A stretch of 45,991 bases of DNA from Candidatus Bathyarchaeia archaeon (GTDB taxonomy: Archaea; Thermoproteota; Bathyarchaeia; Bathyarchaeales; Bathycorpusculaceae). The position numbers were made by a program, and so were the translations under genes. Positions 4,738-14,614 of this stretch are shown here, in pieces. The notes beneath the pieces were generated by a model. That model ran no database searches. It was not told the DNA's origin and saw only the letters and a program-made list of their open reading frames with translations. Location of the stretch: the NCBI GenBank assembly GCA_038882655.1, contig JAVZNT010000004.1:1-45991 (forward strand). Direction: 5' to 3'. Every line of letters begins with the position of its first letter. The stretch's first letter is position 1.

Positions 4738-5604
4738 ATGGGCATACTTGTCGATGAAAACACGAGAGTTCTGGTGCAAGGCATAACCGGACGTGTCGGA
4801 AGCATTCAGACAAAACTTATGCTTGAATACAGAACAAAGATTGTTGCTGGAGTCACGCCTGGGAAAGGGGGCACAACTGTCTACAACGTGCCGGTCTACG
4901 ACACGGTTGAAGAAGCCGTCGCGAAAACTAGTGCAGACACATCGATACTATTTGTCCCAGCGGCTTTTACAAAAGACGCAGTCATTGAGGCGGTGGACGC
5001 TGGCATAAAACTAATCATAGCGATACCGGAACACGTCCCGGTACATGACACCGTGCGAATGGTCGAATACGCCAAAAACAAAAACGCGAGAATAATAGGC
5101 CCGACAACTCCTGGCATAATCAGCCCTGGAAAAACAAAAATTGGAATCATGCCCGCAAACGTCTTTTATGAAGGAAATGTAGGAATAATCTCTAGAAGCG
5201 GAACCTTGCTTTATGAGATTGCAGGAAACCTTAGCTTAGCAGGAATCGGACAAAGCACATGTCTAGGAATAGGTGGAGATCCCGTTGTTGGAACTAGCTT
5301 AACAGAAGTGTTACAAATGTTCCAAGAAGATGACCAAACAAAGCTCATCGTAATCGTGGGAGAAATTGGTGGAATACAAGAAGAGGAGGCATCAAGCTTC
5401 GTAAAGAAAATGGACAAACCAGTCATCGCCTACATAGCTGGCAGATCAGCGCCTCCCGGACAAAGAATGGGACACGCAGGTGCAATAATTCTCGGTGAAA
5501 AAGGAACAGCTGAAAGCAAAATAAAAGCCCTTAAAAAAGCTGGGGTAAAGATAGCCCGTAAACCTGCAGATATAGTCAGCATTGTAAAAACACTTTTAAT
5601 TTAG
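4738..5604 (+). CDS. sucD: Succinyl-CoA synthetase-like alpha subunit
   Basis: [24 protein letters not shown], and phospho-His motif MGHAGA. Confidence 0.93.
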
Positions 5605-5653: not shown

Positions 5654-6928
5654 CTATCCTTGAAGTTTGAAGCGGAGAATTGCGGCGATTCCGCCAAAGG
5701 AGTTTTTCAGCATTTGCCCCTCTTCAGTTTCGTCAGAAATTATTTCAACGTCAGTGTTTGTGTACTCGGCTAGTTGAGCGAAATTTTCTATGAGCTCTTG
5801 TTTTTCAACAATATGTAGGGATGGGACTTTACAGTTTGAGCATGGTTTTCCAGTGAGGCTTTGTTCAAAGCTTATTAATATAGGTCCCTTAACAGTCTGC
5901 TGTTCCTCATAGCCACATGCACCGCACTTGATTCTGACACGTACAATATCAAGACTTTCTGAAAGCAGCAAAGTTTTAACGGCGCCCGCTTCTAAGGCTT
6001 TTCTGACGGTTTCTTCTCCATAAGTTGCGAGGCCCGTGTCATGACCTACCTCATAAAGGAACTGCTGGATTATTTGCCTCTCTTCTATGTAGCGGATTTT
6101 CCTCATAATCTCCGGTGCCTTGTCTACAACCTCTTTTATCCCTTGCTCATCTACGTAGGCGGTGTCAACAGTATCAATAATCTTTTCCTTCAGCTGATAG
6201 TTTAGGTAATCGCCCTTTTCAAAGTCGTATTTGGTGGGGCCTGGGCCACCAATTATTATACCCTTCAAATTTTCTATTGGAAGAAACACTTCATCTGCGT
6301 GTTCGCCCACACGCCTAAAATACTCTTGGAGACGCATTTCCCTAAGCCTTTCAAATCTTCTGGCGGATTGTCCACCGGCACGAGTTTTTCCCGGAACACC
6401 AGATGTTACTTCCCTAATTACTTCGAGTCTTCTGCCTTGAAGGGTTGCGAGGGTTGCGACTGTCGCGTCGATAAGGAGTATGCCATATGTCTCTTTTTCC
6501 CGCAGCATCTCTTGCAAATGCTCTGTGTGGAAACGAGAATCGCATCTATAGAGGTATATGTTTATGGGTTCAGGTGGTATTATCACGTATGTTTCGATTT
6601 TTTCGCTTCCAGCACCATTTTGGGGAACTGCCCCGCAAAATATTACAAGCCCATTCTCTGGGGTTTCCTTGAAAAGTTTTAGGCGTTGCTGAACCTTGAC
6701 GATGGCGTCTTGGACGTTTTTGCGGGTTGTTGTGGATTTTATGTTTGAAGCGGTACCATACTCCTCCCTAAGCATATTCATAACTTCGCTAATCTGCTTC
6801 CCAGGCGGAATGTAAAGTGAAATAAGCTCTGTTCCCCGTCCCTCTTTATCGGCCAGCGCGTTCAGTATCTTTTTTAATCGGAAGAGTTCGAGGGACGTTC
6901 TTTTTTTAGGGGCGCTCAAATTTTTCAC
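5654..6928 (-). CDS. prf1: Peptide chain release factor aRF1
   Basis: TASNIKS, YRCD, GGQS, GPG and FGGIAAILRF motifs. Confidence 0.97.
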   Translation of the reverse strand: MKNLSAPKKRTSLELFRLKKILNALADKEGRGTELISLYIPPGKQISEVMNMLREEYGTASNIKSTTTRKNVQDAIVKVQQRLKLFKETPENGLVIFCGAVPQNGAGSEKIETYVIIPPEPINIYLYRCDSRFHTEHLQEMLREKETYGILLIDATVATLATLQGRRLEVIREVTSGVPGKTRAGGQSARRFERLREMRLQEYFRRVGEHADEVFLPIENLKGIIIGGPGPTKYDFEKGDYLNYQLKEKIIDTVDTAYVDEQGIKEVVDKAPEIMRKIRYIEERQIIQQFLYEVGHDTGLATYGEETVRKALEAGAVKTLLLSESLDIVRVRIKCGACGYEEQQTVKGPILISFEQSLTGKPCSNCKVPSLHIVEKQELIENFAQLAEYTNTDVEIISDETEEGQMLKNSFGGIAAILRFKLQG

Positions 6929-6992
6929 TTAAAGTTTAATGCTATAAGGCTACATGGCAACGCGCCAAATAAAAATATTGGGCAAATAAAGG

Positions 6993-7976
6993 TTAGGACA
7001 AGCCTAGAACTTCTTTGAGAAATGCCTTATACGGTCCGAGTTTCCCGCCGTAGTTGCCAGCGGAAATTCGTAGGACGCCCGGAACGGTTATGGCTGCCTT
7101 TACTCCTTCGCCCATGGCCTTCTTAACGGCTTCAACTGTTAAGCCGTTGATGACTATTTCGTAGACAGAGTCAACATCTTCTGGCAGTTGGGAGCCCGCC
7201 ACAACCTTTTTCAGTGTTGGACAGAAGGGATGGTTTGTTGAAGCTTTTAGCTTATATTTTAAGGAGCCAGCTTTAGAGCCAGACCGGCAGACTCCGCCTG
7301 GAAAGGGCATTATGACCCCATCCGCGACGTTTTTTATTGTCTTTACTGCTTCTTCTGCTGCTTGTAGTCCCGAGTTTTTGTCCTTTGCCAGTATGAGAAA
7401 GTTTCCCCCGGCAACAGCCTCCGCAACGCCAAACGAGTCTTCCACAATGAATTCGCCTTCCATAACAGGAATTCTCCAAACCTTTCTGCCGCCGATAACG
7501 CCTTTCTTTTGGAAGCCATCGCCAAAATAGCGAAGACTACGCCCAACTTTCATTCTTCTTCTCGCATCTGGAAGGGCATCAAAAGCCGCTGTTGTGGGAC
7601 ACGTCATGATACATTGCCCAATACGGAGTATCATCTGGTTTTTTAGGTCGAAACGATTTCGATTGTAGATTTGTATTATGGCGCCCACTCTTCCATCTGG
7701 AGTCTTTTCCCCTGGAACAAGCCCCTCAACTCCAGCCTCTGCTGGAGCCATAATGACGCTGGTTGCGAAACCGGTTGCCACTTCAGCGGCAGTTAAAGCC
7801 CATTTTTCGCTGTCCGCTGTAATGAGCACTCTCCCAGCCCACATTGGAAACATTTCCGCGAACGTGTCCGAAACTTTTACTGTGTGACCCTTCTGGGACT
7901 TTACTATTAAGCATGGTCCAAACTTGTCTTTTTCGTCGTAGCCAGTTATTTCGAGTTTGGCTTCGCTTTGTATCAT
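6993..7976 (-). CDS. ftr: Formylmethanofuran:H4MPT formyltransferase
   Basis: DTFAE, TPDGR, RIGQC..TCPTT, FGDG, RSGSK and SAGNYGGKLG. Start uncertain (7976 or 8012). Confidence 0.95.
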   Translation of the reverse strand: MIQSEAKLEITGYDEKDKFGPCLIVKSQKGHTVKVSDTFAEMFPMWAGRVLITADSEKWALTAAEVATGFATSVIMAPAEAGVEGLVPGEKTPDGRVGAIIQIYNRNRFDLKNQMILRIGQCIMTCPTTAAFDALPDARRRMKVGRSLRYFGDGFQKKGVIGGRKVWRIPVMEGEFIVEDSFGVAEAVAGGNFLILAKDKNSGLQAAEEAVKTIKNVADGVIMPFPGGVCRSGSKAGSLKYKLKASTNHPFCPTLKKVVAGSQLPEDVDSVYEIVINGLTVEAVKKAMGEGVKAAITVPGVLRISAGNYGGKLGPYKAFLKEVLGLS

Positions 7977-8031
7977 GTTCAAACCTAGCTTTGAGGATAG
8001 GCATAATCTCATTTAAGACTTTTCGCTAAAG

Positions 8032-8046
8032 GTGGCAAAATGCCAC
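8032..8046. promoter_or_regulatory. Inverted repeat GTGGCA-AAA-TGCCAC in the ftr/frhB divergent promoter
   Basis: Perfect 6-bp arms with a 3-nt spacer; function inferred only. Confidence 0.35.
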
Positions 8047-8132
8047 ATTAGTAGCTCATAATTAAATAGCTTTAACCGTCCTAAGAAGCCAACCTAAACT
8101 ATTTATTCTTTAACTCTATAAAAGTGCTTAAT

Positions 8133-9182
8133 ATGAAAACCGCTAAGGTCAGCTTTGAAGAGTCCATAGCTGACGCTGTTATCAAGACTGGGAAATGTGT
8201 TGGCTGCGGCACGTGTGTGCTCGTCTGTCCTTTCGACTGCCTTGAATACGTTGAAGAAAAACCCAACTTAGTGAAGGAGTGTAAAGTTTGCGGCGTATGT
8301 GCACAAGCATGCCCACAATACGATTTCCCATTATCAAAAATTGAGAACTTTGTATTTGGAAGAGAATGTAAGCCTGATGAAGCTTTTGGAATTTACAGAA
8401 GACTTGCATTGGCAAGGGCTACGGACAAACAAATCCTAGGAAAATGCCAAGATGGTGGAGCTGTAACAGCTTTACTTTTATTCGCCCTAAAAAATGGCAT
8501 CATTGACGGAGCAATAGTTACAAGAAGCAAGCGAGAAAAGCCATTTTACCCGCATCCTACACTTGCAATAACGGCTGATGATATTCTGCAGTCGGCTGGA
8601 ACTAAATACTTTTACTCGCCAAATATCCTTGCCATAGCAAAGGCTTTGGAACAAAAACGTGGAAAAATAGCGTTGGTTGGAACACCATGCCAAATTCGCG
8701 CAGTAAGAAAAATGCAGTTTGCCGGATTGAAGAAATACATTAATCTGTTAAAGTTTCTAATTGGACTGGCATGCTCCGAGTGTTTTATTTATAACGGACT
8801 CATGAAACAGCACATTGCCGAAAAGTTGGGAGTAGACCTAAACCGCATTAGAAAAGTTAACATTAAAGGCAAGATGCTGCTAACGCTGGAATCTGAGGCG
8901 GTGGCAATACCACTTGCAGAGGCAAAACAGTACGCTAGAAAAAGCTGCCACTTCTGCGAAGACTTCAGCTCTGAGCTAGCGGACATCTCAGTGGGCGGGC
9001 TTGGACTTGAAGGATGGACCTTTGTGATTATACGAACAGAACGAGGCGAAGAACTATTTTCTAACGCGGAAAAAGCAGGAGCCATTATAACTAAAGAGGC
9101 AAGCATGGAGGCAAACGCTTTAAACCTACTAATCAAGCTTTCCAGAAAGAAGAGGGCTTCAGCTAAAGAAGCCGTTAAATAA
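8133..9182 (+). CDS. Coenzyme F420 hydrogenase/dehydrogenase beta subunit (FrhB/FpoF-like) with N-terminal 2x[4Fe-4S] domain
   Basis: CVGCGTCVLVCP, CKVCGVCAQACP, QDGGAVT, GTKY, VGTPCQ and CHFCEDFSSELADISVG. Confidence 0.92.
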   Translation: MKTAKVSFEESIADAVIKTGKCVGCGTCVLVCPFDCLEYVEEKPNLVKECKVCGVCAQACPQYDFPLSKIENFVFGRECKPDEAFGIYRRLALARATDKQILGKCQDGGAVTALLLFALKNGIIDGAIVTRSKREKPFYPHPTLAITADDILQSAGTKYFYSPNILAIAKALEQKRGKIALVGTPCQIRAVRKMQFAGLKKYINLLKFLIGLACSECFIYNGLMKQHIAEKLGVDLNRIRKVNIKGKMLLTLESEAVAIPLAEAKQYARKSCHFCEDFSSELADISVGGLGLEGWTFVIIRTERGEELFSNAEKAGAIITKEASMEANALNLLIKLSRKKRASAKEAVK

Positions 9183-9264
9183 AGGACACTCAGTCTTTTC
9201 TGAAATACTTATAAACATTGCATTCTAAATATGGCTTCTAGCTTGATGCCTCAAGGTGCACCCC

Positions 9265-10155
9265 TTGAATAAGGTCAAAATTGGCGTCTTCAAATGTGGC
9301 AACATTGGAACTGCACCCTTACTTGAACTACTTTTTGACGAACTAGCTGATAGAGAGGACATAAGCGTTCGAACAATAACAACAGGGGCGAAAATGCTTG
9401 CGGAAGAAGTTGCAGAAGCCTTACCAAAAATCTTTGACTTCAACCCAGAATTCATAATCTTCATTTCGCCAAATCCAGCAGTTCAAGGACCCAAAAAGGC
9501 CATGGAAATCCTTTCAGAAAAGAAAATTCCAAGCATATTCATCTCCGACGCTCCAGGAAAACGCCTCAAAGAGGAATTTGAAAAACAAGGTTTCGGCTAC
9601 ATTATAGTTATGGGCGACCCCCTCATAGGCGCCAGAAAAGAGTTTCTAGACCCAACTGAAATGGCGATTTTCAACTCAAACGTGATAAAAGTGCTGGCAA
9701 TCACAGGCGTCTACAAAATGATTTACCAAGAAATCGACCGTATTATTCACTGCTGCAAGGAAGACATAGCATTCGAACTGCCAAGGCTAATTATAGACAC
9801 CGACAATATTAGGGACAACTCTGACTTTAGAAATCCGTACGCCCTTGCGAAGGCCATGGCAGCTTACGAACTGACAAAGAAGACTGCAGAGATAAACGCG
9901 CGGGCATGTTTCATGGAGAAAGAAAAGGAGAAATACATTCCGTTGGTTGTATGTGCCCATGAAATCGCGCAGGTTGCAGCCAGCCTCGCTGAAGAGGCTA
10001 GGGAAATTGAAAAATACGCGGATACGCTTGTTAGAAGACCCCACTCTAAGGAGGGCAGATTAAAGGTTAAAGATAAGCTGATGATGCCCCCCACTTTTGA
10101 TGAGGAAATTTATCAGAAATGGCTTAAAACGTTGAAGCTGAGCGGCAATCCTTAG
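9265..10155 (+). CDS. mtd: F420-dependent methylene-H4MPT dehydrogenase
   Basis: KCGNIG, DELADREDI, SPNP..GP, IGARKEFLDPTEMA.FN, NPYALAKA and RRPH. TTG start after AGGTG (GTG 9256 is an alternative). Confidence 0.93.
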   Translation: MNKVKIGVFKCGNIGTAPLLELLFDELADREDISVRTITTGAKMLAEEVAEALPKIFDFNPEFIIFISPNPAVQGPKKAMEILSEKKIPSIFISDAPGKRLKEEFEKQGFGYIIVMGDPLIGARKEFLDPTEMAIFNSNVIKVLAITGVYKMIYQEIDRIIHCCKEDIAFELPRLIIDTDNIRDNSDFRNPYALAKAMAAYELTKKTAEINARACFMEKEKEKYIPLVVCAHEIAQVAASLAEEAREIEKYADTLVRRPHSKEGRLKVKDKLMMPPTFDEEIYQKWLKTLKLSGNP

Positions 10156-10245
10156 CTTTGTATATACGCTATTAATACATATATAAGATATTTCGAATAA
10201 GTATATATTTTCCGCCTTCTACTTGATTCTTAGGTGAAAAACAAA

Positions 10246-11958
10246 ATGAAAGCTCTTGAAATAACACCTTTGGAAGGAAAAACATTAAGGGTCATAATAG
10301 TTGAGAAAGAATACAGCGAACCATTCTGGATCGCAGAACCCGCAAACAATCACACACCCAAAAACATCCTCTCATCCAGATTTAAGCCGTCCGTAGCCTT
10401 CTGCAGTTTCTTCGAAAAATTAATCGACGAAGTTAAACCAGACTTCATAACAGAAGAGCTAGGAAACCGCTCAACCAAAGAATTTAATGAAGCAAATGTT
10501 CTCGCTCAAATAAGCCAGAAAGCAAAAATCCCCTTCTTCGCTGTCGACATGGACGAAAATGCACGAGGCTACGTGGCTTCCCTCATTGAAGAGAAAAGAC
10601 AGCTTAGAGACAAAATACTGAAAGCGTTGGAAGAAATGCCCGAAAATAGTGCCGAAAAAGAGTACTTGATAGCATATGGGCAGTGCTTACAACAGGAAAT
10701 CGAGGAGTTAGAACGCGAGGCGAAGTTTTCAGTCAGGGAAAGTTGGATAGCCATGGACATTCTTGAAAACGCCAGAAGCTTGGAAAAAACAGAGATTATA
10801 TGCTTGCACATATCAAGTCCAGAACACGTAGGCGGAGTAAAAAAACTTTTAGAGTCTGTTGACGTCAATGTAGAAACAATTCAGCCGACAAAAAAGTTGG
10901 TCTTCACAAAGGAGAAGGCGCCGATGGCTGAGGTTGAGGATTTACTTAAATCCATGCAAATTCAAGTTAAACCAGTTATTAGAACGTCATCCGAAGAGGC
11001 TCCTTACATTCTTTTCTTCTTAGACACAGATAAGAGGGCAAGCCCATTTGACATTTGCATGGCTTACGATGCTGGGTTCAGCGTTGTAGTCCCATACGAA
11101 AACGTAACTGCTGAGGAAGCAAAGAAGATAGTGCAGGACGCCATCTTCTCAAGAGACCCGAAGGGGATTAAGCGTACATGCTTCTTTGTCGGCGGAAAAG
11201 ACATGGAAAAAGCTGAAGAAGTTCTAAAGGTTGTACGCGAAACCATGTTTCCACCCTTTCAAGCCAACACCATAATTGACCCAGCTGGCGCCTATACAAC
11301 AGCAGCAGCCATGGTGGCTAAAGTTGAAGACGCCATAGCAAAAGCCAAGCTTGGAAATTTAAAAGATAAACGAGTAGCGGTTTTCGGCACAGGAGCCGTT
11401 GGAAGGGTTGCAGCCATCCTGTTGGCTAAACTTGGATGCAGCGTAAAGATTGTGAGTCCAAACCCTGACAGAAAAGACGGAGACGAATACGTTTCAAAGC
11501 TGTCCACTCTGCTCCGTGAAAGATACGGCGTGGACGTAGAAGGCGTTTTCGCCCCAACGCCGGAGAAAAAAGTTGAAGTTGTAAATGAGACGGATGTTAT
11601 TCTGTGCGCGTCCGTTGCAGGAGTCCGTATATTAACCAAAGACATGTTGAACTCTGTGAAATTTGTCAAAGTTATAGCCGACGTCAATGCTGTTCCGCCG
11701 CTCGGGGTGGAAGGAATGAAACTTGAAGACGACATGAAAGAATTTGCTCCTGGAATCTTCGGCATAGGTCCACTAACGATTGGACGGCTTAAGTACAAGC
11801 TTGAACGCGAAATTTTAAGGGAAGCCAGAAGAAACGGTAAAGGAACAGTCTACAACTACAACTATGCAATGGAACTGGCAAGGAAGATACTTAAGGGTGA
11901 ACTTCCAGCTGCCAAGCTTGCAGTTACAGTTAGTTACCCTCCAAAGGAACGAAAGTAA
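10246..11958 (+). CDS. Fusion of an unknown ~250-aa N-terminal domain with a NAD(P)-dependent methylene-H4MPT dehydrogenase (MtdA/B/C-like)
   Basis: C-terminal part has DTD..ASPFD..MAYDAG, QDAIFSR, DPAGAYTTAAA, GTGAVG, DVNAVPPLGV and IGRLKY. Confidence 0.85.
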   Translation: MKALEITPLEGKTLRVIIVEKEYSEPFWIAEPANNHTPKNILSSRFKPSVAFCSFFEKLIDEVKPDFITEELGNRSTKEFNEANVLAQISQKAKIPFFAVDMDENARGYVASLIEEKRQLRDKILKALEEMPENSAEKEYLIAYGQCLQQEIEELEREAKFSVRESWIAMDILENARSLEKTEIICLHISSPEHVGGVKKLLESVDVNVETIQPTKKLVFTKEKAPMAEVEDLLKSMQIQVKPVIRTSSEEAPYILFFLDTDKRASPFDICMAYDAGFSVVVPYENVTAEEAKKIVQDAIFSRDPKGIKRTCFFVGGKDMEKAEEVLKVVRETMFPPFQANTIIDPAGAYTTAAAMVAKVEDAIAKAKLGNLKDKRVAVFGTGAVGRVAAILLAKLGCSVKIVSPNPDRKDGDEYVSKLSTLLRERYGVDVEGVFAPTPEKKVEVVNETDVILCASVAGVRILTKDMLNSVKFVKVIADVNAVPPLGVEGMKLEDDMKEFAPGIFGIGPLTIGRLKYKLEREILREARRNGKGTVYNYNYAMELARKILKGELPAAKLAVTVSYPPKERK

Positions 11959-11970
11959 CTCAGCAAAAGG

Positions 11971-12987
11971 CTAAGAGGGAACCTTAAAAGATTGGTTAAT
12001 GGTAATCTCTGCGATGTCTGCTGAATACTCGGCTATACGTTGGATGCTGTCTCTTATAGAGCAGCATGCGCAAATGACCTCGGTGTCTTTTTCCTTCAAA
12101 AATGCTAGGGAGGCTATTTCCCTATCCAACTTCTCTATTTTAGCCTGATTCTCAATAACATCATTCGCTACTTTCACATCTTTTGCGAAAAGGGCGTTTA
12201 CTGCATTGTCGTAAAGTGTTAATGCGTCGCATCCGGCAGAATACATTTTCTCTAACAAAGGCTTTGAAACCTCTTTTCCGCCTCCTTCCATCATGATTAC
12301 GTGTTTTGCCACATTAGCCGCTTGGTCTGAAACTTGTTCTATGCGGTGAATAAGCGTCTGATAATCCAAGCAGTCAATGGGCTCTACCGCAAGCTGATTA
12401 GCCAACGCGGGGTCAACAGCCGCCCTGCGTACAAGCCTCAGCAAGAAGAAAGAGAAGTGGTCAACTTCATCGTCTATCATATAAACTGATTTCGCTAGAG
12501 CTGCATCTTGATCTTTAAGGGCGGTGAAGGCTTCCCGACACATGGAGCTTGATATTTTGTACATTCTATTAATTCCGGTTTCAATAGATGCCTTAGACTC
12601 GTCTATAAGGGTTGCAATGTTCATTTCTTTCGTATCCGCCTCCATTATACGCATGTAAAGCATCTGCACTATCCTCCGGATGGCTTTCTGTTGCGGCACC
12701 GTGAAAAATTTGTCTGACACAAGTCTAATGTAGGAATAACCATTCAAGTAGCATGCAATTATGCCGCGAATGATAAAGGATATGTCCTTTTCTGACTCAA
12801 CATGAAGGGTTATCTTAGCTGGTTCCCGCTCTTTCCGCGCACCGGGAAAAACGACTAGGGAGCGGTCTCTGTTCATTGCAATTGAGACAACATCTCCACT
12901 CTTAAGCTCGTTTAACTCAGTCCAATATTTTGGAAGCGAAATAACAAGCGAAGAGCGCCCGAGAGACATTATTTTACGTTGCTCCAT
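11971..12987 (-). CDS. AbrB-domain / PhoU-domain transcriptional regulator
   Basis: RKIMSLGRSSLVISLPKYW AbrB N-terminus; PhoU repeats DDEVD, RIEQVSD and RIAEYSADIAE. Confidence 0.9.
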   Translation of the reverse strand: MEQRKIMSLGRSSLVISLPKYWTELNELKSGDVVSIAMNRDRSLVVFPGARKEREPAKITLHVESEKDISFIIRGIIACYLNGYSYIRLVSDKFFTVPQQKAIRRIVQMLYMRIMEADTKEMNIATLIDESKASIETGINRMYKISSSMCREAFTALKDQDAALAKSVYMIDDEVDHFSFFLLRLVRRAAVDPALANQLAVEPIDCLDYQTLIHRIEQVSDQAANVAKHVIMMEGGGKEVSKPLLEKMYSAGCDALTLYDNAVNALFAKDVKVANDVIENQAKIEKLDREIASLAFLKEKDTEVICACCSIRDSIQRIAEYSADIAEITINQSFKVPS

Positions 12988-13136
12988 ACAAACTTTCACC
13001 ACTAAACATTAACAAAAAAATCAAATATATATTTTTATAGACAATATAAGTAGAGCTTTCTTAATTCAAACAGCTTAAATAAGTAAAATCGCGATTCTAT
13101 TAGTGAAAAGCCGGTAATGTTGGAAGGTGAAAAAGT

Positions 13137-13399: not shown

Positions 13400-14614
13400 T
13401 TGGCAACAAATAAAATTCGGAACCTCTTGGTTATCGGGATAGACACAACTTTTATCGCCAAGTCTGCAAAAAGCATTGGCTATAATGTTTATGCAATTGA
13501 TTACTTTGACGACGTTGACCTTCAATGGATTTGCGACGATTACAAGTCTGCAATAAAACATTACAAAGGCGAAAATTACAAGGGCGAGAGCGCCTCTTAT
13601 AATCCAAAAGTTCTCATGGAACTGGCAAAAAGTTTGATAATGGATCGTCATATAGATGCGCTTTTGCTTTCTTCAGGTCTTGACGACCAGTTTGACGTCC
13701 TCTACGAGTTAAATAGCATGGCACCAATATTGGGAAATCCTCCTAGTGTTATTAGAAAAGTTCGCGAAAAGCAGAGGTTCTTTAACGAACTTAAAGCACT
13801 AGGAATACCTCACCCTGAAACAGTTGTCGTTAAAAACGTCCACGAAGCAAAAGAAGCTGCCGCGAGGATTGGGTATCCAGTTGTCTTTAAACCAGCTAGC
13901 GGCTTTGGAGGGATGGGAATAAAAATCGCATCATATCCTTCAGAAACAGAGAGGGCTTTTTCCTCAGCGTCAAAGATATCCGACAGAGTTGTTACTCAAA
14001 AATTGATTAAGGGCTTTCATGCAAGCATGTCTATTTTAGCTGATAAAAAAGAGGTCAAGGTTTTATCTATAAATGAACAATTATTGGGGTTGCCATCAGT
14101 TTTTCAAGATGAGCCTTTTTGCTATTGTGGTAACATTGTGCCTTTTCAGGTAACCAAATCAATTTTGGAAAAATGCAAATTCATAGCTGAAAAAATTGCT
14201 TTGCATTTTGGTCTTATTGGCTCTAATGGCATTGACATTGTTATTTCAGAGGATGGAACACCACATGTGATAGAGGTTAACCCGCGGTTTCAAGGAACTT
14301 TGGGCTGTGTGGAAAAGGTTTTAGGAATTAACATTGTTGACGCTCACGTCAAAGCTTGCCTATACGATGAACTACCAACAACGATGTTGCCTTCAAATTT
14401 TTGCACCCGCCTTATTTTATATGCTCCTAGGCGGGTTGTTGTTCCAGACCTTACAACATTACAAGGTGTGCAAAATATCCCACCTCCACAAAGCATAATT
14501 GAGAAGGGAGAACCTTTATGCTCTGTTTTGGCTGAGGGAGAAAGTCGCAAAATATCTCTTCAGAAAGCTAACGACCTAGCCAAGGTTATTTATAGCAAGC
14601 TTCAACCGCTCTAA
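13400..14614 (+). CDS. ATP-grasp carboligase (COG2232-like, H4MPT/methanofuran-linked type)
   Basis: AIDYFDDVDL, GYPVVFKP.SGFGG, YCGN, GSNGID and IEVNPRFQG. Confidence 0.85.
   Translation: MATNKIRNLLVIGIDTTFIAKSAKSIGYNVYAIDYFDDVDLQWICDDYKSAIKHYKGENYKGESASYNPKVLMELAKSLIMDRHIDALLLSSGLDDQFDVLYELNSMAPILGNPPSVIRKVREKQRFFNELKALGIPHPETVVVKNVHEAKEAAARIGYPVVFKPASGFGGMGIKIASYPSETERAFSSASKISDRVVTQKLIKGFHASMSILADKKEVKVLSINEQLLGLPSVFQDEPFCYCGNIVPFQVTKSILEKCKFIAEKIALHFGLIGSNGIDIVISEDGTPHVIEVNPRFQGTLGCVEKVLGINIVDAHVKACLYDELPTTMLPSNFCTRLILYAPRRVVVPDLTTLQGVQNIPPPQSIIEKGEPLCSVLAEGESRKISLQKANDLAKVIYSKLQPL

What the first reader, a model, noticed from the sequence alone, without database searches (positions are those of the whole stretch)
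8133..11958. Tandem F420- and NAD(P)-dependent methylene-H4MPT dehydrogenases plus an FpoF-like gene: possible F420/NAD(P)/ferredoxin exchange hub
Seen: three co-oriented genes (FrhB/FpoF-like with 2x[4Fe-4S], archaeal Mtd, MtdA/B-like) divergent from ftr. Established: Mtd and MtdA/B/C catalyse the same methylene/methenyl-H4MPT step with F420 and NAD(P) respectively; MtdA/B/C are best known from methylotrophic bacteria and Planctomycetes; methanogens couple Hmd and Mtd as a cycle; FpoF can link ferredoxin and F420. Inference: run in opposite directions, the two enzymes would form an H4MPT-mediated F420H2:NAD(P)+ transhydrogenase, or let the cell pick the C1 electron carrier. The Mtd-like Rossmann fold (GTGAVG, then VSPNPDRK with no acidic residue at the end of beta-2) suggests NADP. 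Archaeal MtdA/B-like homologues alone may not be new; the pairing is the notable part.
Basis: partly seen in the sequence, partly recalled or inferred. Interest (0 to 1): 0.8.

Follow-up and report, generated by a model that had tools for sequence, protein, structure and literature searches.

The report
Paired F420 and NAD(P) methylene-H4MPT dehydrogenases
A hot-spring archaeon encodes, side by side, two enzymes for the same one-carbon step that use different electron carriers, and the second one carries a large undescribed extra domain, so the pair may let the cell trade electrons between its F420 and NAD(P) pools.

Summary
The genes are real and lie where stated: ftr (-), then a co-oriented FrhB-like F420 oxidoreductase with two [4Fe-4S] motifs, F420-dependent Mtd, and an MtdA-like gene.

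An unassigned 258-aa N-terminal domain ("X") is fused to the MtdA-like half. Two earlier notes of this scan found the same fusion on other DNA.

- **Synteny:** Mtd sits directly upstream of X-MtdA in 58 of 73 usable Bathyarchaeia loci, but in only 4 of 11 genomes of an evenly drawn class sample.
- **Co-occurrence:** All 11 of 11 X-MtdA genomes have Mtd. None of 19 genomes with a short, X-less MtdA-like gene has it.
- **Substrate:** A relative is fused to genuine Mer, which argues for H4MPT.
- **FrhB-like:** It lies within 250 nt of Mtd in 20 of 98 Mtd-positive genomes. Its architecture matches the F420-reducing subunits of Ethanoperedens CODH and Fwd.
- **Fno, Mer:** Not found in 13 genomes of the genus.

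The exchange-hub reading is coherent and partly supported, but unproven:
- Fno is also missing from most Mtd-only genomes.
- A SudA/NfnB-type gene is present.
- X tracks MtdA rather than Mtd.
- The co-fold with Mtd gave weak support only.

I found no published description.

The parts
6993..8012 (-). ftr, formylmethanofuran:H4MPT formyltransferase, divergent from the three-gene row
   Evidence: Pfam FTR 189 bits and FTR_C 208 bits. TIGR03119 404 bits against a cut-off of 292.6.
8124..9182 (+). FrhB-like F420 oxidoreductase with an N-terminal 2x[4Fe-4S] ferredoxin domain (residues about 18-65) and an FrhB-type FAD/[4Fe-4S] domain (about 86-350). The alternative ATG start is at 8133.
   Evidence: Pfam Fer4, FrhB_FdhB_N and FrhB_FdhB_C. 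NCBIfam FrhB and FpoF scores fall below their cut-offs. Best full-length solved relatives are 8riu_B (ACDS zeta, E 1.7e-53, residues 18-344 on 15-340) and 8rja_E (FwdI, E 4.7e-49).
9256..10155 (+). mtd, F420-dependent methylene-H4MPT dehydrogenase
   Evidence: PF01993 383 bits. NF002162 equivalog 375.3 bits against a cut-off of 297.
10234..11007 (+). N-terminal 'X' domain of the 574-aa protein (residues 1-258). Conserved and unassigned. The true start is probably the ATG at 10246, preceded by GGTGA.
   Evidence: No Pfam or NCBIfam match. There are 33 invariant columns in 32 sequences. AF2 model pLDDT 82.3. No Foldseek PDB hit at E<=0.001. 115 relatives among 1.84 billion representatives. Start inferred.
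11008..11958 (+). MtdA-like NAD(P)-type methylene-H4MPT dehydrogenase domain (residues 259-574): Mpt_N plus a Rossmann fold with GTGAVG, then S408 and R413 invariant after beta-2
   Evidence: PF09176 105 bits. PDB MtdA 6tlk, 6tge and 1lu9, E 1.6e-35 to 5.7e-35 over residues 259-559. Invariant columns.
11971..13002 (-). AbrB/SpoVT-PhoU-domain gene, convergent, 12 nt from the stop of X-MtdA. This is the most constant neighbour.
   Evidence: Pfam PhoU 66 bits and MazE/AbrB-type 20 bits. Directly downstream and convergent in 69 of 71 loci with room. It also lies beside solo X in G005 and beside a short MtdA-like gene in G148.
13400..14614 (+). ATP-grasp ligase, a neighbour in part of the loci. Membership in the unit is uncertain.
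   Evidence: Pfam ATP-grasp_3 109 bits. Weak MptN (51.6 bits against a cut-off of 350) and RimK matches. tblastn match in 20 of the 80 loci, counted by eye from the table. An ATP-grasp gene also lies beside the short MtdA-like gene of G008.

Best explanation
This is a Bathyarchaeial H4MPT one-carbon node with three redox modules.

- Mtd interconverts methenyl- and methylene-H4MPT with F420.
- The next gene encodes an MtdA-type dehydrogenase that most likely does the same reaction with NAD(P), probably NADP. It is extended by an undescribed 258-aa domain, X.
- The FrhB-like iron-sulfur flavoprotein connects F420 to ferredoxin or to an Fe-S enzyme.

Both dehydrogenases draw on one H4MPT pool. 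Together they can therefore pass hydride between F420H2 and NAD(P)+, one oxidising what the other reduces. They can equally split formaldehyde-derived methylene-H4MPT (Fae is present) between the two carriers.

Shown: gene identities, domain architecture, synteny and co-occurrence.

Inferred: NAD(P) use, H4MPT substrate, simultaneous activity, net transhydrogenation, and any role of X. My guess is that X is an oligomerisation or regulatory module of the MtdA-like enzyme.
For: 1. **Identities.** Family scores are above cut-offs for Ftr and Mtd. There is strong homology to solved MtdA.
2. **Conserved pairing.** Mtd is directly upstream and co-oriented in 58 of 73 loci at 55-95% identity. Flanking genes decay over the same loci: Ftr in 29 of 80, FrhB-like in 27 of 80.
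3. **Module behaviour** in 151 class genomes.
   - X-MtdA genomes with Mtd: 11 of 11.
   - X-domain genomes with Mtd: 13 of 13.
   - Short MtdA-like genomes with Mtd: 0 of 19.
   - The contrast holds within one genus (g4): G038 has the long form plus Mtd, and four others have the short form without Mtd.
4. **Substrate.** G063 and G107 carry MtdA-like domains fused to genuine Mer (TIGR03555 447 bits against a cut-off of 349), followed in G063 by a FrhB-like gene.
5. **FrhB-like links** (my reading of the coordinates).
   - Within 250 nt of Mtd in 20 of 98 Mtd-positive genomes, across 9 GTDB families and in three orientations.
   - Next to the short MtdA-like gene in 3 Mtd-less genomes.
6. **Genus context.** Fno 0 of 13, Mer over cut-off 0 of 13, MTHFR 1 of 13. 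The window's own genome has Fae, Mch, FwdA, CdhA and CofE.
7. **Co-fold of X-MtdA with Mtd: weak support**.
   - Score 0.36, best of 3 controls 0.00.
   - The mark was reached by 58 of 80 solved complexes and 2 of 110 mismatches. At 0.60 or under it was reached by only 7 of those 80 and by both mismatches that passed.
   - Runs agree in at least 84% of contacts, and partner pLDDT is at least 85.
   - A pass this weak is more often wrong than right unless the guess was likely beforehand.
8. **Precedent.** The Hmd-Mtd cycle of methanogens is a known H4MPT-mediated carrier exchange. This is recalled, not taken from a call.
Against: - No enzyme activity, cofactor specificity or expression data exist.
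- Fno is also not found in 65 of 87 Mtd-positive genomes that lack the long form. Its absence therefore creates no specific need.
- The window's genome has a 481-aa SudA/NfnB/GltD-type gene (Fer4_20, 155 bits). It could make NADPH from ferredoxin.
- In the evenly drawn class sample, Mtd and X-MtdA are adjacent in only 4 of 11 genomes. In one more they are near on opposite strands, and in six they lie on separate contigs.
- X follows MtdA, not Mtd.
  - In metagenome loci, a solo-X gene is followed by an X-MtdA gene in 35 of 35 cases with room.
  - Mtd lies within 5.5 kb in only 3 of 18 such loci.
- AT-rich TATA-like stretches precede each gene, so co-transcription is not assured.
- Kin are not independent, so the counts overstate the support.
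Confidence: 0.4

Rival explanations
1. Division of labour without net transhydrogenation. X-MtdA is the oxidative enzyme of a methylotroph-style formaldehyde-disposal route (Fae, MtdA-type, Mch, Ftr, Fwd) and yields NAD(P)H. Mtd serves the reductive direction or a different condition. The two are regulated apart, perhaps by the AbrB-PhoU neighbour.
For: - Fae (246 bits), Mch, Ftr and FwdA are present.
- Mer was found in 0 of 13 and MTHFR in 1 of 13 genomes of the genus, so the route seems to end at methylene-H4MPT.
- Short MtdA-like genes stand alone in 19 Mtd-less genomes, so the MtdA type can carry the step by itself.
- TATA-like stretches lie before each gene.
- The AbrB-PhoU gene is adjacent in 69 of 71 loci.
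Against: - It does not explain why the X-bearing form is found only with Mtd (11 of 11) while X-less forms exclude it (0 of 19).
- It does not explain the tight 78-nt co-oriented spacing.
- It is not exclusive of the best explanation if both enzymes are present at once.
Confidence: 0.3
2. The long protein has a different job. X adds or changes the chemistry, for example a second catalytic step on a pterin intermediate or a cofactor-biosynthesis role. The MtdA-like half may no longer act as a plain methylene-H4MPT dehydrogenase.
For: - X has 33 invariant columns, many of them acidic or His (E24, E26, E29, D70, E75, D105, E169, H198).
- X occurs in both domain orders with MtdA (P0150 is permuted).
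- X has a constant solo paralogue upstream, in 35 of 35 loci.
- An ATP-grasp gene with weak MptN/RimK likeness is nearby.
Against: - The core motifs shared with MtdA are invariant in the C-terminal half.
- Relatives are fused to Mer.
- X has no detectable similarity to any enzyme family: Pfam 0 of 32 consistent, PDB profile none, Foldseek best E 0.014.
Confidence: 0.12
3. The adjacency is inherited gene order within one clade, without functional coupling. The two genes are simply both C1 genes.
For: - All 80 loci come from one class.
- Adjacency falls to 4 of 11 in an evenly drawn sample.
- In metagenome loci of another lineage Mtd is rarely nearby, in 3 of 18.
Against: - Flanking genes turn over while the pair persists down to 55% identity.
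- Genome-level co-occurrence is 11 of 11 against 0 of 19, also within one genus.
- FrhB-like and Mtd are adjacent in three different orientations across 9 families.
Confidence: 0.12

Closest known systems
MtdA / MtdB / MtdC, NAD(P)-dependent methylene-H4MPT dehydrogenases of methylotrophic bacteria (solved MtdA: 1lu9, 6tlk, 6tge)
   Same: The Mpt_N and Rossmann domains align end to end: residues 259-559 on 5-294, E 1.6e-35. GxGxxG and most core motifs are kept.
   Different: - Archaeal, and twice as long, with a 258-aa unassigned N-terminal domain.
- Encoded next to F420-dependent Mtd.
- Cofactor and substrate are untested.
- I had no labelled MtdB or MtdC sequences, so its placement among A, B and C was not determined.
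Hmd-Mtd cycle of hydrogenotrophic methanogens (recalled, not from a call)
   Same: Two enzymes act on the methenyl/methylene-H4MPT couple with different electron partners, so that H4MPT shuttles hydride between the carriers.
   Different: Here the second partner would be NAD(P) rather than H2, and no biochemical evidence exists. Hmd itself was not searched for.
Fno, F420H2:NADP+ oxidoreductase
   Same: It performs the net reaction proposed for the pair.
   Different: It is a single small enzyme with direct hydride transfer. It was not found in 13 genomes of this genus. It is present over cut-off in 38 of 151 class genomes, including one X-MtdA genome, G038.
ACDS zeta subunit and FwdI of Ca. 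Ethanoperedens thermophilum (8RIU, 8RJA; PMC11493965, abstract and passages read)
   Same: The architecture matches the FrhB-like protein: an N-terminal 2x[4Fe-4S] ferredoxin domain plus an FrhB-type FAD/[4Fe-4S] F420 reductase. Alignment covers the full length, E 1.7e-53 and 4.7e-49.
   Different: - Here the gene lies beside ftr and mtd, not in a cdh or fwd operon.
- The score is no higher than to plain FrhB (185 bits each).
- The partner is unknown.
FolD-type and other fused C1 enzymes; the MtdA-Mer fusion seen here in G063 and G107
   Same: Consecutive or alternative H4MPT-level steps are joined in one gene or gene row.
   Different: In the window the fused partner is not a known enzyme domain.

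Membership tests
Mtd (F420-dependent methylene-H4MPT dehydrogenase) | Full-length match to PF01993 and NF002162 above the curated cut-offs | tested here: met
   383 bits against a cut-off of 25, and 375.3 bits against 297.
Mtd (F420-dependent methylene-H4MPT dehydrogenase) | F420 is available in the organism | tested here: inconclusive
   CofE matches three times over cut-off in the window's genome. CofH was not found: 18.5 bits against a cut-off of 374, in an assembly 84% complete.
MtdA/B/C (NAD(P)-dependent methylene-H4MPT dehydrogenase) | Mpt_N domain followed by a Rossmann domain, homologous over the whole length of solved MtdA | tested here: met
   PF09176 105 bits. 6tlk_A E 1.6e-35, residues 259-559 on 5-294.
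MtdA/B/C (NAD(P)-dependent methylene-H4MPT dehydrogenase) | Single-module protein of about 290-300 aa | tested here: not met
   The protein is 574 aa with a conserved 258-aa N-terminal domain. All 80 related loci match from query residues 1-8 onward, so all include the N-terminal domain.
MtdA/B/C (NAD(P)-dependent methylene-H4MPT dehydrogenase) | Uses NAD(P), not F420 | not testable with these tools
   Only indirect signs are available. GTGAVG is present, there is no acidic residue at the end of beta-2, and S408 and R413 are invariant. The reading of these residues as NADP-binding is inference.
MtdA/B/C (NAD(P)-dependent methylene-H4MPT dehydrogenase) | Acts on methylene-H4MPT | not testable with these tools
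   Indirect evidence only: a 40%-identical domain is fused to genuine Mer in G063, and no FolD was found in the window's genome.
FrhB / FpoF | Score above the NCBIfam equivalog cut-offs | tested here: not met
   FrhB 226.6 bits against 331.5. FpoF 124.3 against 475 and 128.1 against 444. The Pfam FrhB_N and FrhB_C domains are met.
ACDS-zeta / FwdI-type F420 reductase subunit | N-terminal 2x[4Fe-4S] domain plus an FrhB-type domain | tested here: met
   Two CxxCxxCxxxCP motifs. Full-length alignment to 8riu_B and 8rja_E. The architecture is as described in PMC11493965.
ACDS-zeta / FwdI-type F420 reductase subunit | Encoded in, and bound to, a CODH or Fwd complex | tested here: not met
   The gene lies between ftr and mtd. 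FwdA is on contig C7 and CdhA on C10. Binding is not testable here.
TraB / PrgY / Tiki / ChaN superfamily (for domain X) | Detectable match to PF01963 or to a solved member | tested here: not met
   - Pfam: 0 of 32 members match TraB at E<=5.
- PDB profile: no hit.
- Foldseek: ChaN 2g5g at rank 17, TM 0.30, E 0.11.
- ESM Atlas: nearest named cluster is TraB at 0.78, which is below lead level.
- The motif-level likeness is my recall and that of earlier notes.

The most novel reading that the evidence does not exclude
Mtd and X-MtdA form a physical complex, with X as the docking or gating module. This complex works as an H4MPT-cycling, Fno-independent F420H2:NADP+ transhydrogenase. The FrhB-like protein feeds it from ferredoxin. 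That would make a three-carrier (ferredoxin, F420, NADP) exchange machine specific to Bathyarchaeia and perhaps Asgard archaea.
Probability: 0.15. Interest if true: 0.85.

Novelty: new variant of a known kind. Interest (0 to 1): 0.6.

Why it matters
Bathyarchaeia are among the most abundant sediment archaea, and how they balance ferredoxin, F420 and NAD(P)H is poorly known.

A conserved two-gene module that puts an F420 enzyme and an NAD(P) enzyme on the same H4MPT couple would explain how lineages without Fno link these pools. It would be a second natural example of carrier exchange through H4MPT.

It also brings to light an unassigned, conserved 258-aa domain tied to MtdA-type enzymes, and natural MtdA-Mer fusions. 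Both are directly testable with recombinant proteins.

Genome-based pathway maps that list only 'Mtd' miss this second dehydrogenase.

Tried and rejected
- **Expression.** No RNA holder was listed. Laying four runs gave 0 reads from the one raw RNA run, of which about 12 in 100 was read, and 0 from another RNA run. Only short contigs came from two runs marked 'RNA? (probably DNA)'. This gives no evidence on co-expression either way.
- **Fold of X.**
  - Foldseek against the PDB gave no hit at E<=0.001.
  - The PDB sequence profile gave none.
  - Pfam was 0 of 32 consistent.
  - PF01963 was not found in 41 Bathyarchaeia genomes at E<=1e-15. I therefore had no TraB alignment for a profile-profile test.
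- **Metagenome scan.** The first scan, with a 31-sequence solo-X alignment, failed because the alignment was too diverse. It was repeated with a 12-sequence subgroup.
- **X as a docking domain for Mtd.** I considered this and downgraded it. X travels with MtdA (35 of 35) rather than with Mtd (3 of 18) in other lineages.
- **F420 absent.** I considered this because CofH was not found. I rejected it because CofE is present three times.
- **Fno absence as a discriminator.** Rejected: Fno is found in 1 of 11 X-MtdA genomes against 22 of 87 other Mtd-positive genomes.
- **Catalytic residues of MtdA.** The structural paper for 6TLK, 6TGE and 6TM3 is not in the library, so I made no residue-by-residue check.
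- **Literature.**
  - Searches found no description of MtdA/B-type enzymes or this pairing in Bathyarchaeia. The passages I read were in PMC5103831, PMC10974373, PMC12533140, PMC11287216, PMC10321748 and PMC11697101.
  - One search failed on term format.
  - Supplementary tables were not visible and may list the gene.
- **Tree.** The tree is the quick tree. The careful search did not finish.

Full report
**What is there**

The stretch holds four strongly supported genes.
- ftr, 6993-8012 (-), TIGR03119 404 bits.
- A 352-aa FrhB-like protein, 8124-9182 (+). It has two CxxCxxCxxxCP motifs at its N-terminus, plus FrhB_FdhB_N and FrhB_FdhB_C domains.
- F420-dependent Mtd, 9256-10155 (+), NF002162 375 bits against a cut-off of 297.
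- A 574-aa ORF, 10234-11958 (+).

The quoted motifs GTGAVG and VSPNPDRK are present.

Residues 1-258 are an additional domain, here called X, with no Pfam or NCBIfam match. The likely true start is the ATG at 10246. A GGTGA lies upstream, and homologues begin MKxLEI.

**The X-MtdA fusion is a family, not an accident**

- A search of 5.8 billion proteins returned 901 relatives in the 315-1005-aa window. The best 120 are 485-598 aa, most are Bathyarchaeia, and NCBI names them 'NAD(P)-dependent methylenetetrahydromethanopterin dehydrogenase'.
- In 32 sequences, X is on average 63% identical to the window's copy and the MtdA half 70%. X has 33 invariant columns.
- A profile of X found only 115 relatives at E<=0.001 among 1.84 billion representatives. 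They fall into three kinds:
  - fused forms of 551-579 aa;
  - solo proteins of about 200-265 aa;
  - one permuted protein, P0150, with MtdA first and X at residues 316-490.
- X folds confidently (pLDDT 82.3) as a five-stranded alpha/beta domain with a long helical hairpin.
- X has no significant match elsewhere:
  - Foldseek against the PDB: best E 0.014, with ChaN at rank 17 and TM 0.30.
  - PDB sequence profile: none.
  - Pfam: 0 of 32 members consistent.
  - ESM Atlas: nearest named cluster is TraB at 0.78, below lead level.
- A TraB/Tiki-like ancestry is my recollection from motif order, and two earlier notes of this scan suggest it too. It was not confirmed here.

**Synteny**

I examined the 80 best of 142 related loci in one-genome-per-species contigs. 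All 80 carry Bathyarchaeia labels except one labelled Limnocylindrales, and they are 55-95% identical.
- Mtd lies directly upstream and co-oriented in 58 of 73 loci with at least 1100 nt upstream. Seven loci were dropped for lack of room.
- An AbrB-PhoU gene lies convergent and directly downstream in 69 of 71 loci. Nine were dropped.
- A FrhB-like gene lies directly upstream of Mtd in 10 loci, and anywhere within 8 kb in 27 of 80.
- Ftr is present in 29 of 80.
- Where Mtd is missing upstream, unrelated genes take its place.

These loci are ranked by likeness to the window, so they are biased. In an evenly drawn sample of 151 class genomes, the 11 X-MtdA genomes split as follows:
- Mtd adjacent in 4.
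- Mtd nearby on the other strand in 1.
- Mtd on another contig in 6.

**Co-occurrence**

In the same 151 genomes, Mpt_N occurs in 32, in three forms:
- 11 as X-MtdA (open frames of 567-614 aa);
- 2 as frames of 647-649 aa (G063, G107);
- 19 as short frames of 296-350 aa.

Mtd occurs in 98 of 151. All 11 X-MtdA genomes have Mtd, and so do all 13 genomes with any X domain. None of the 19 short-form genomes has it. The contrast appears even within one genus (g4): G038 has the long form with Mtd adjacent, while four others have the short form and no Mtd.

The 647-649-aa forms are different fusions. G063's protein is an MtdA-like domain joined to genuine Mer (TIGR03555 447 bits against a cut-off of 349), followed by a co-oriented FrhB-like gene. 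G107 has the same long frame carrying Mer. This natural fusion argues that the archaeal MtdA-like domain, 40% identical to the window's, works on methylene-H4MPT.

A quick maximum-likelihood tree (midpoint root, careful search unfinished) gives three results:
- The Bathyarchaeial long forms fall in one clade (SH-aLRT 97).
- Most short Bathyarchaeial forms and the Mer fusion fall in another.
- Other fused forms branch basally.

**X goes with MtdA rather than with Mtd**

I collected 80 metagenome loci with a solo-X profile.
- All 35 loci with at least 2.5 kb downstream carry an X-MtdA gene directly after solo X on the same strand.
- Mtd lies within 5.5 kb in only 3 of 18 loci with room on both sides, and a FrhB-like gene in 2 of 18.
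- The same tandem is seen in G053.

X is therefore best seen as a module of the MtdA-type enzyme. It may well oligomerise with its solo paralogue.

A co-fold of full-length X-MtdA with Mtd gave weak support only.
- Score 0.36, best of 3 controls 0.00.
- The mark was reached by 58 of 80 solved complexes and 2 of 110 mismatches. At 0.60 or below it was reached by only 7 of those 80 and by both mismatches that passed.
- Runs agree in at least 84% of contacts, and partner pLDDT is at least 85.

**The FrhB-like protein**

It is the only FrhB-family gene found in the window's genome. NCBIfam places it below the FrhB and FpoF cut-offs.

Its closest full-length solved relatives are two F420-reducing subunits of Ca. 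Ethanoperedens:
- the zeta subunit of the F420-reducing CODH (8riu_B, E 1.7e-53);

Both have the same ferredoxin-domain plus F420-reductase layout (PMC11493965, abstract and passages read).

Full-length homologues at E<=1e-60 occur in 103 of 151 class genomes. Reading the printed coordinates together gives these links:
- Within 250 nt of an Mtd match in 20 of 98 Mtd-positive genomes. These span 9 GTDB families: 7 co-oriented upstream, 2 divergent and 11 convergent.
- Within 3 kb in 24 of the 98.
- Next to the short MtdA-like gene in three Mtd-less genomes (G032, G121, G142).

The FrhB-like gene beside the MtdA-Mer fusion is only 33% identical to the window's, so it is a paralogue at best. The three modules are thus linked pairwise in several arrangements. 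This supports the idea of a redox node, though not any particular electron path.

**Genome context**

The window's genome is 1.02 Mb in 27 contigs and 84% complete.
- Found: Fae (246 bits, in a 482-aa frame), Mch, FwdA, CdhA and three CofE matches.
- Not found: Fno, Mer, MTHFR, FolD, CofH, or an RFAP synthase over cut-off.

The key absences hold for the genus, in 13 genomes of which 6 are at least 90% complete:
- Fno: 0 of 13.
- Mer over cut-off: 0 of 13.
- MTHFR: 1 of 13.

The recognisable H4MPT route therefore runs between CO2 and methylene-H4MPT, with Fae as an entry. This is the layout of the methylotrophs' formaldehyde-oxidation module.

Two facts stand against a special need for an F420-to-NADP link:
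- Fno is over cut-off in only 1 of 11 X-MtdA genomes, but also in only 22 of 87 other Mtd-positive genomes.
- The genome has a 481-aa SudA/NfnB/GltD-type gene.

**Reading**

The best-supported account is a shared-substrate node. Mtd (F420) and X-MtdA (probably NADP) act on one methenyl/methylene-H4MPT pool, and the FrhB-like protein ties F420 to Fe-S carriers.

Whether the two dehydrogenases run against each other as a transhydrogenase cannot be decided from sequence. They may simply offer alternative outlets, or serve different directions. By analogy with the Hmd-Mtd cycle, and with the midpoint potentials as I recall them (methenyl/methylene-H4MPT below F420, which is below NADP), the cycle is feasible. 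I give the node-with-exchange reading 0.4, division of labour 0.3, and the rest to a changed function of the long protein or to mere inherited order.

**Novelty and limits**

Five literature searches, and the passages read, turned up no description of MtdA-type enzymes, the X fusion, or the Mtd pairing in Bathyarchaeia. The large genomic surveys mention only 'Mtd' in the passages I saw. Supplements were closed.

The same fusion was noted twice before in this scan on other genomes.

All counts come from related genomes and overstate independence. No expression evidence could be obtained.

Noticed in passing
window 11971-13002 (-): An AbrB/SpoVT-PhoU-domain gene is the most constant neighbour of MtdA-like genes. 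It lies convergent and directly downstream in 69 of 71 loci. It also lies beside a solo-X gene in G005 (L093:3825-4901) and beside a short MtdA-like gene in G148 (L095:6323-7348). It is a possible regulator, with function unknown.
   Followed up: partly
L094:3233-5152 (-) and L094:2064-3140 (-) (genome G063); the same long frame occurs in G107: A natural fusion of an MtdA-like domain (N-terminal) to genuine F420-dependent Mer (TIGR03555, 447 bits), followed by a FrhB-like gene with two [4Fe-4S] motifs. These genomes have no Mtd.
   Followed up: partly
P0150 (496 aa): A permuted architecture: the MtdA-like part comes first (Mpt_N at 16-95) and the X domain sits at the C-terminus (316-490).
   Followed up: partly
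L099-L176 (metagenome loci), e.g. L114:6001-6573 then 6630-8282: A solo-X gene of about 209 aa is always followed by an X-MtdA fusion gene: 35 of 35 loci with room. The same tandem occurs in G053:C22:6914-7558 and 7659 onward.
   Followed up: yes
window 13400-14614 (+): An ATP-grasp ligase with weak MptN (H4MPT:glutamate ligase, 51.6 bits against a cut-off of 350) and RimK likeness. An ATP-grasp gene also lies beside the short MtdA-like gene of G008 (L096:2453-3670). It may act in cofactor tailoring.
   Followed up: no
genus-wide (G000, G151-G158, G162-G165): No Mer (0 of 13 over cut-off) and almost no MTHFR (1 of 13), even though CdhA is present in the window's genome. No known enzyme for the methylene-to-methyl step of the archaeal Wood-Ljungdahl route was found in this genus.
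   Followed up: partly
G000:C11:14758-15087 (within a 481-aa frame): A SudA/NfnB/GltD-type Fer4_20 protein (155 bits), a candidate ferredoxin- or NADH-linked NADP reductase. It is present in 12 of 13 relatives searched.
   Followed up: no
G077:C39:2270-5186 and G136:C12:34973-37889: FrhB-like (divergent), Mtd and CofE lie in a row. This places an F420-reductase, an F420-user and an F420-biosynthesis gene in one cluster in another family.
   Followed up: no
window 4738-5604 (+) and 5654-6928 (-): A succinyl-CoA ligase alpha-type gene and eRF1 flank ftr. eRF1-ftr synteny is kept in 25 of the 80 related loci, counted by eye from the table.
   Followed up: no
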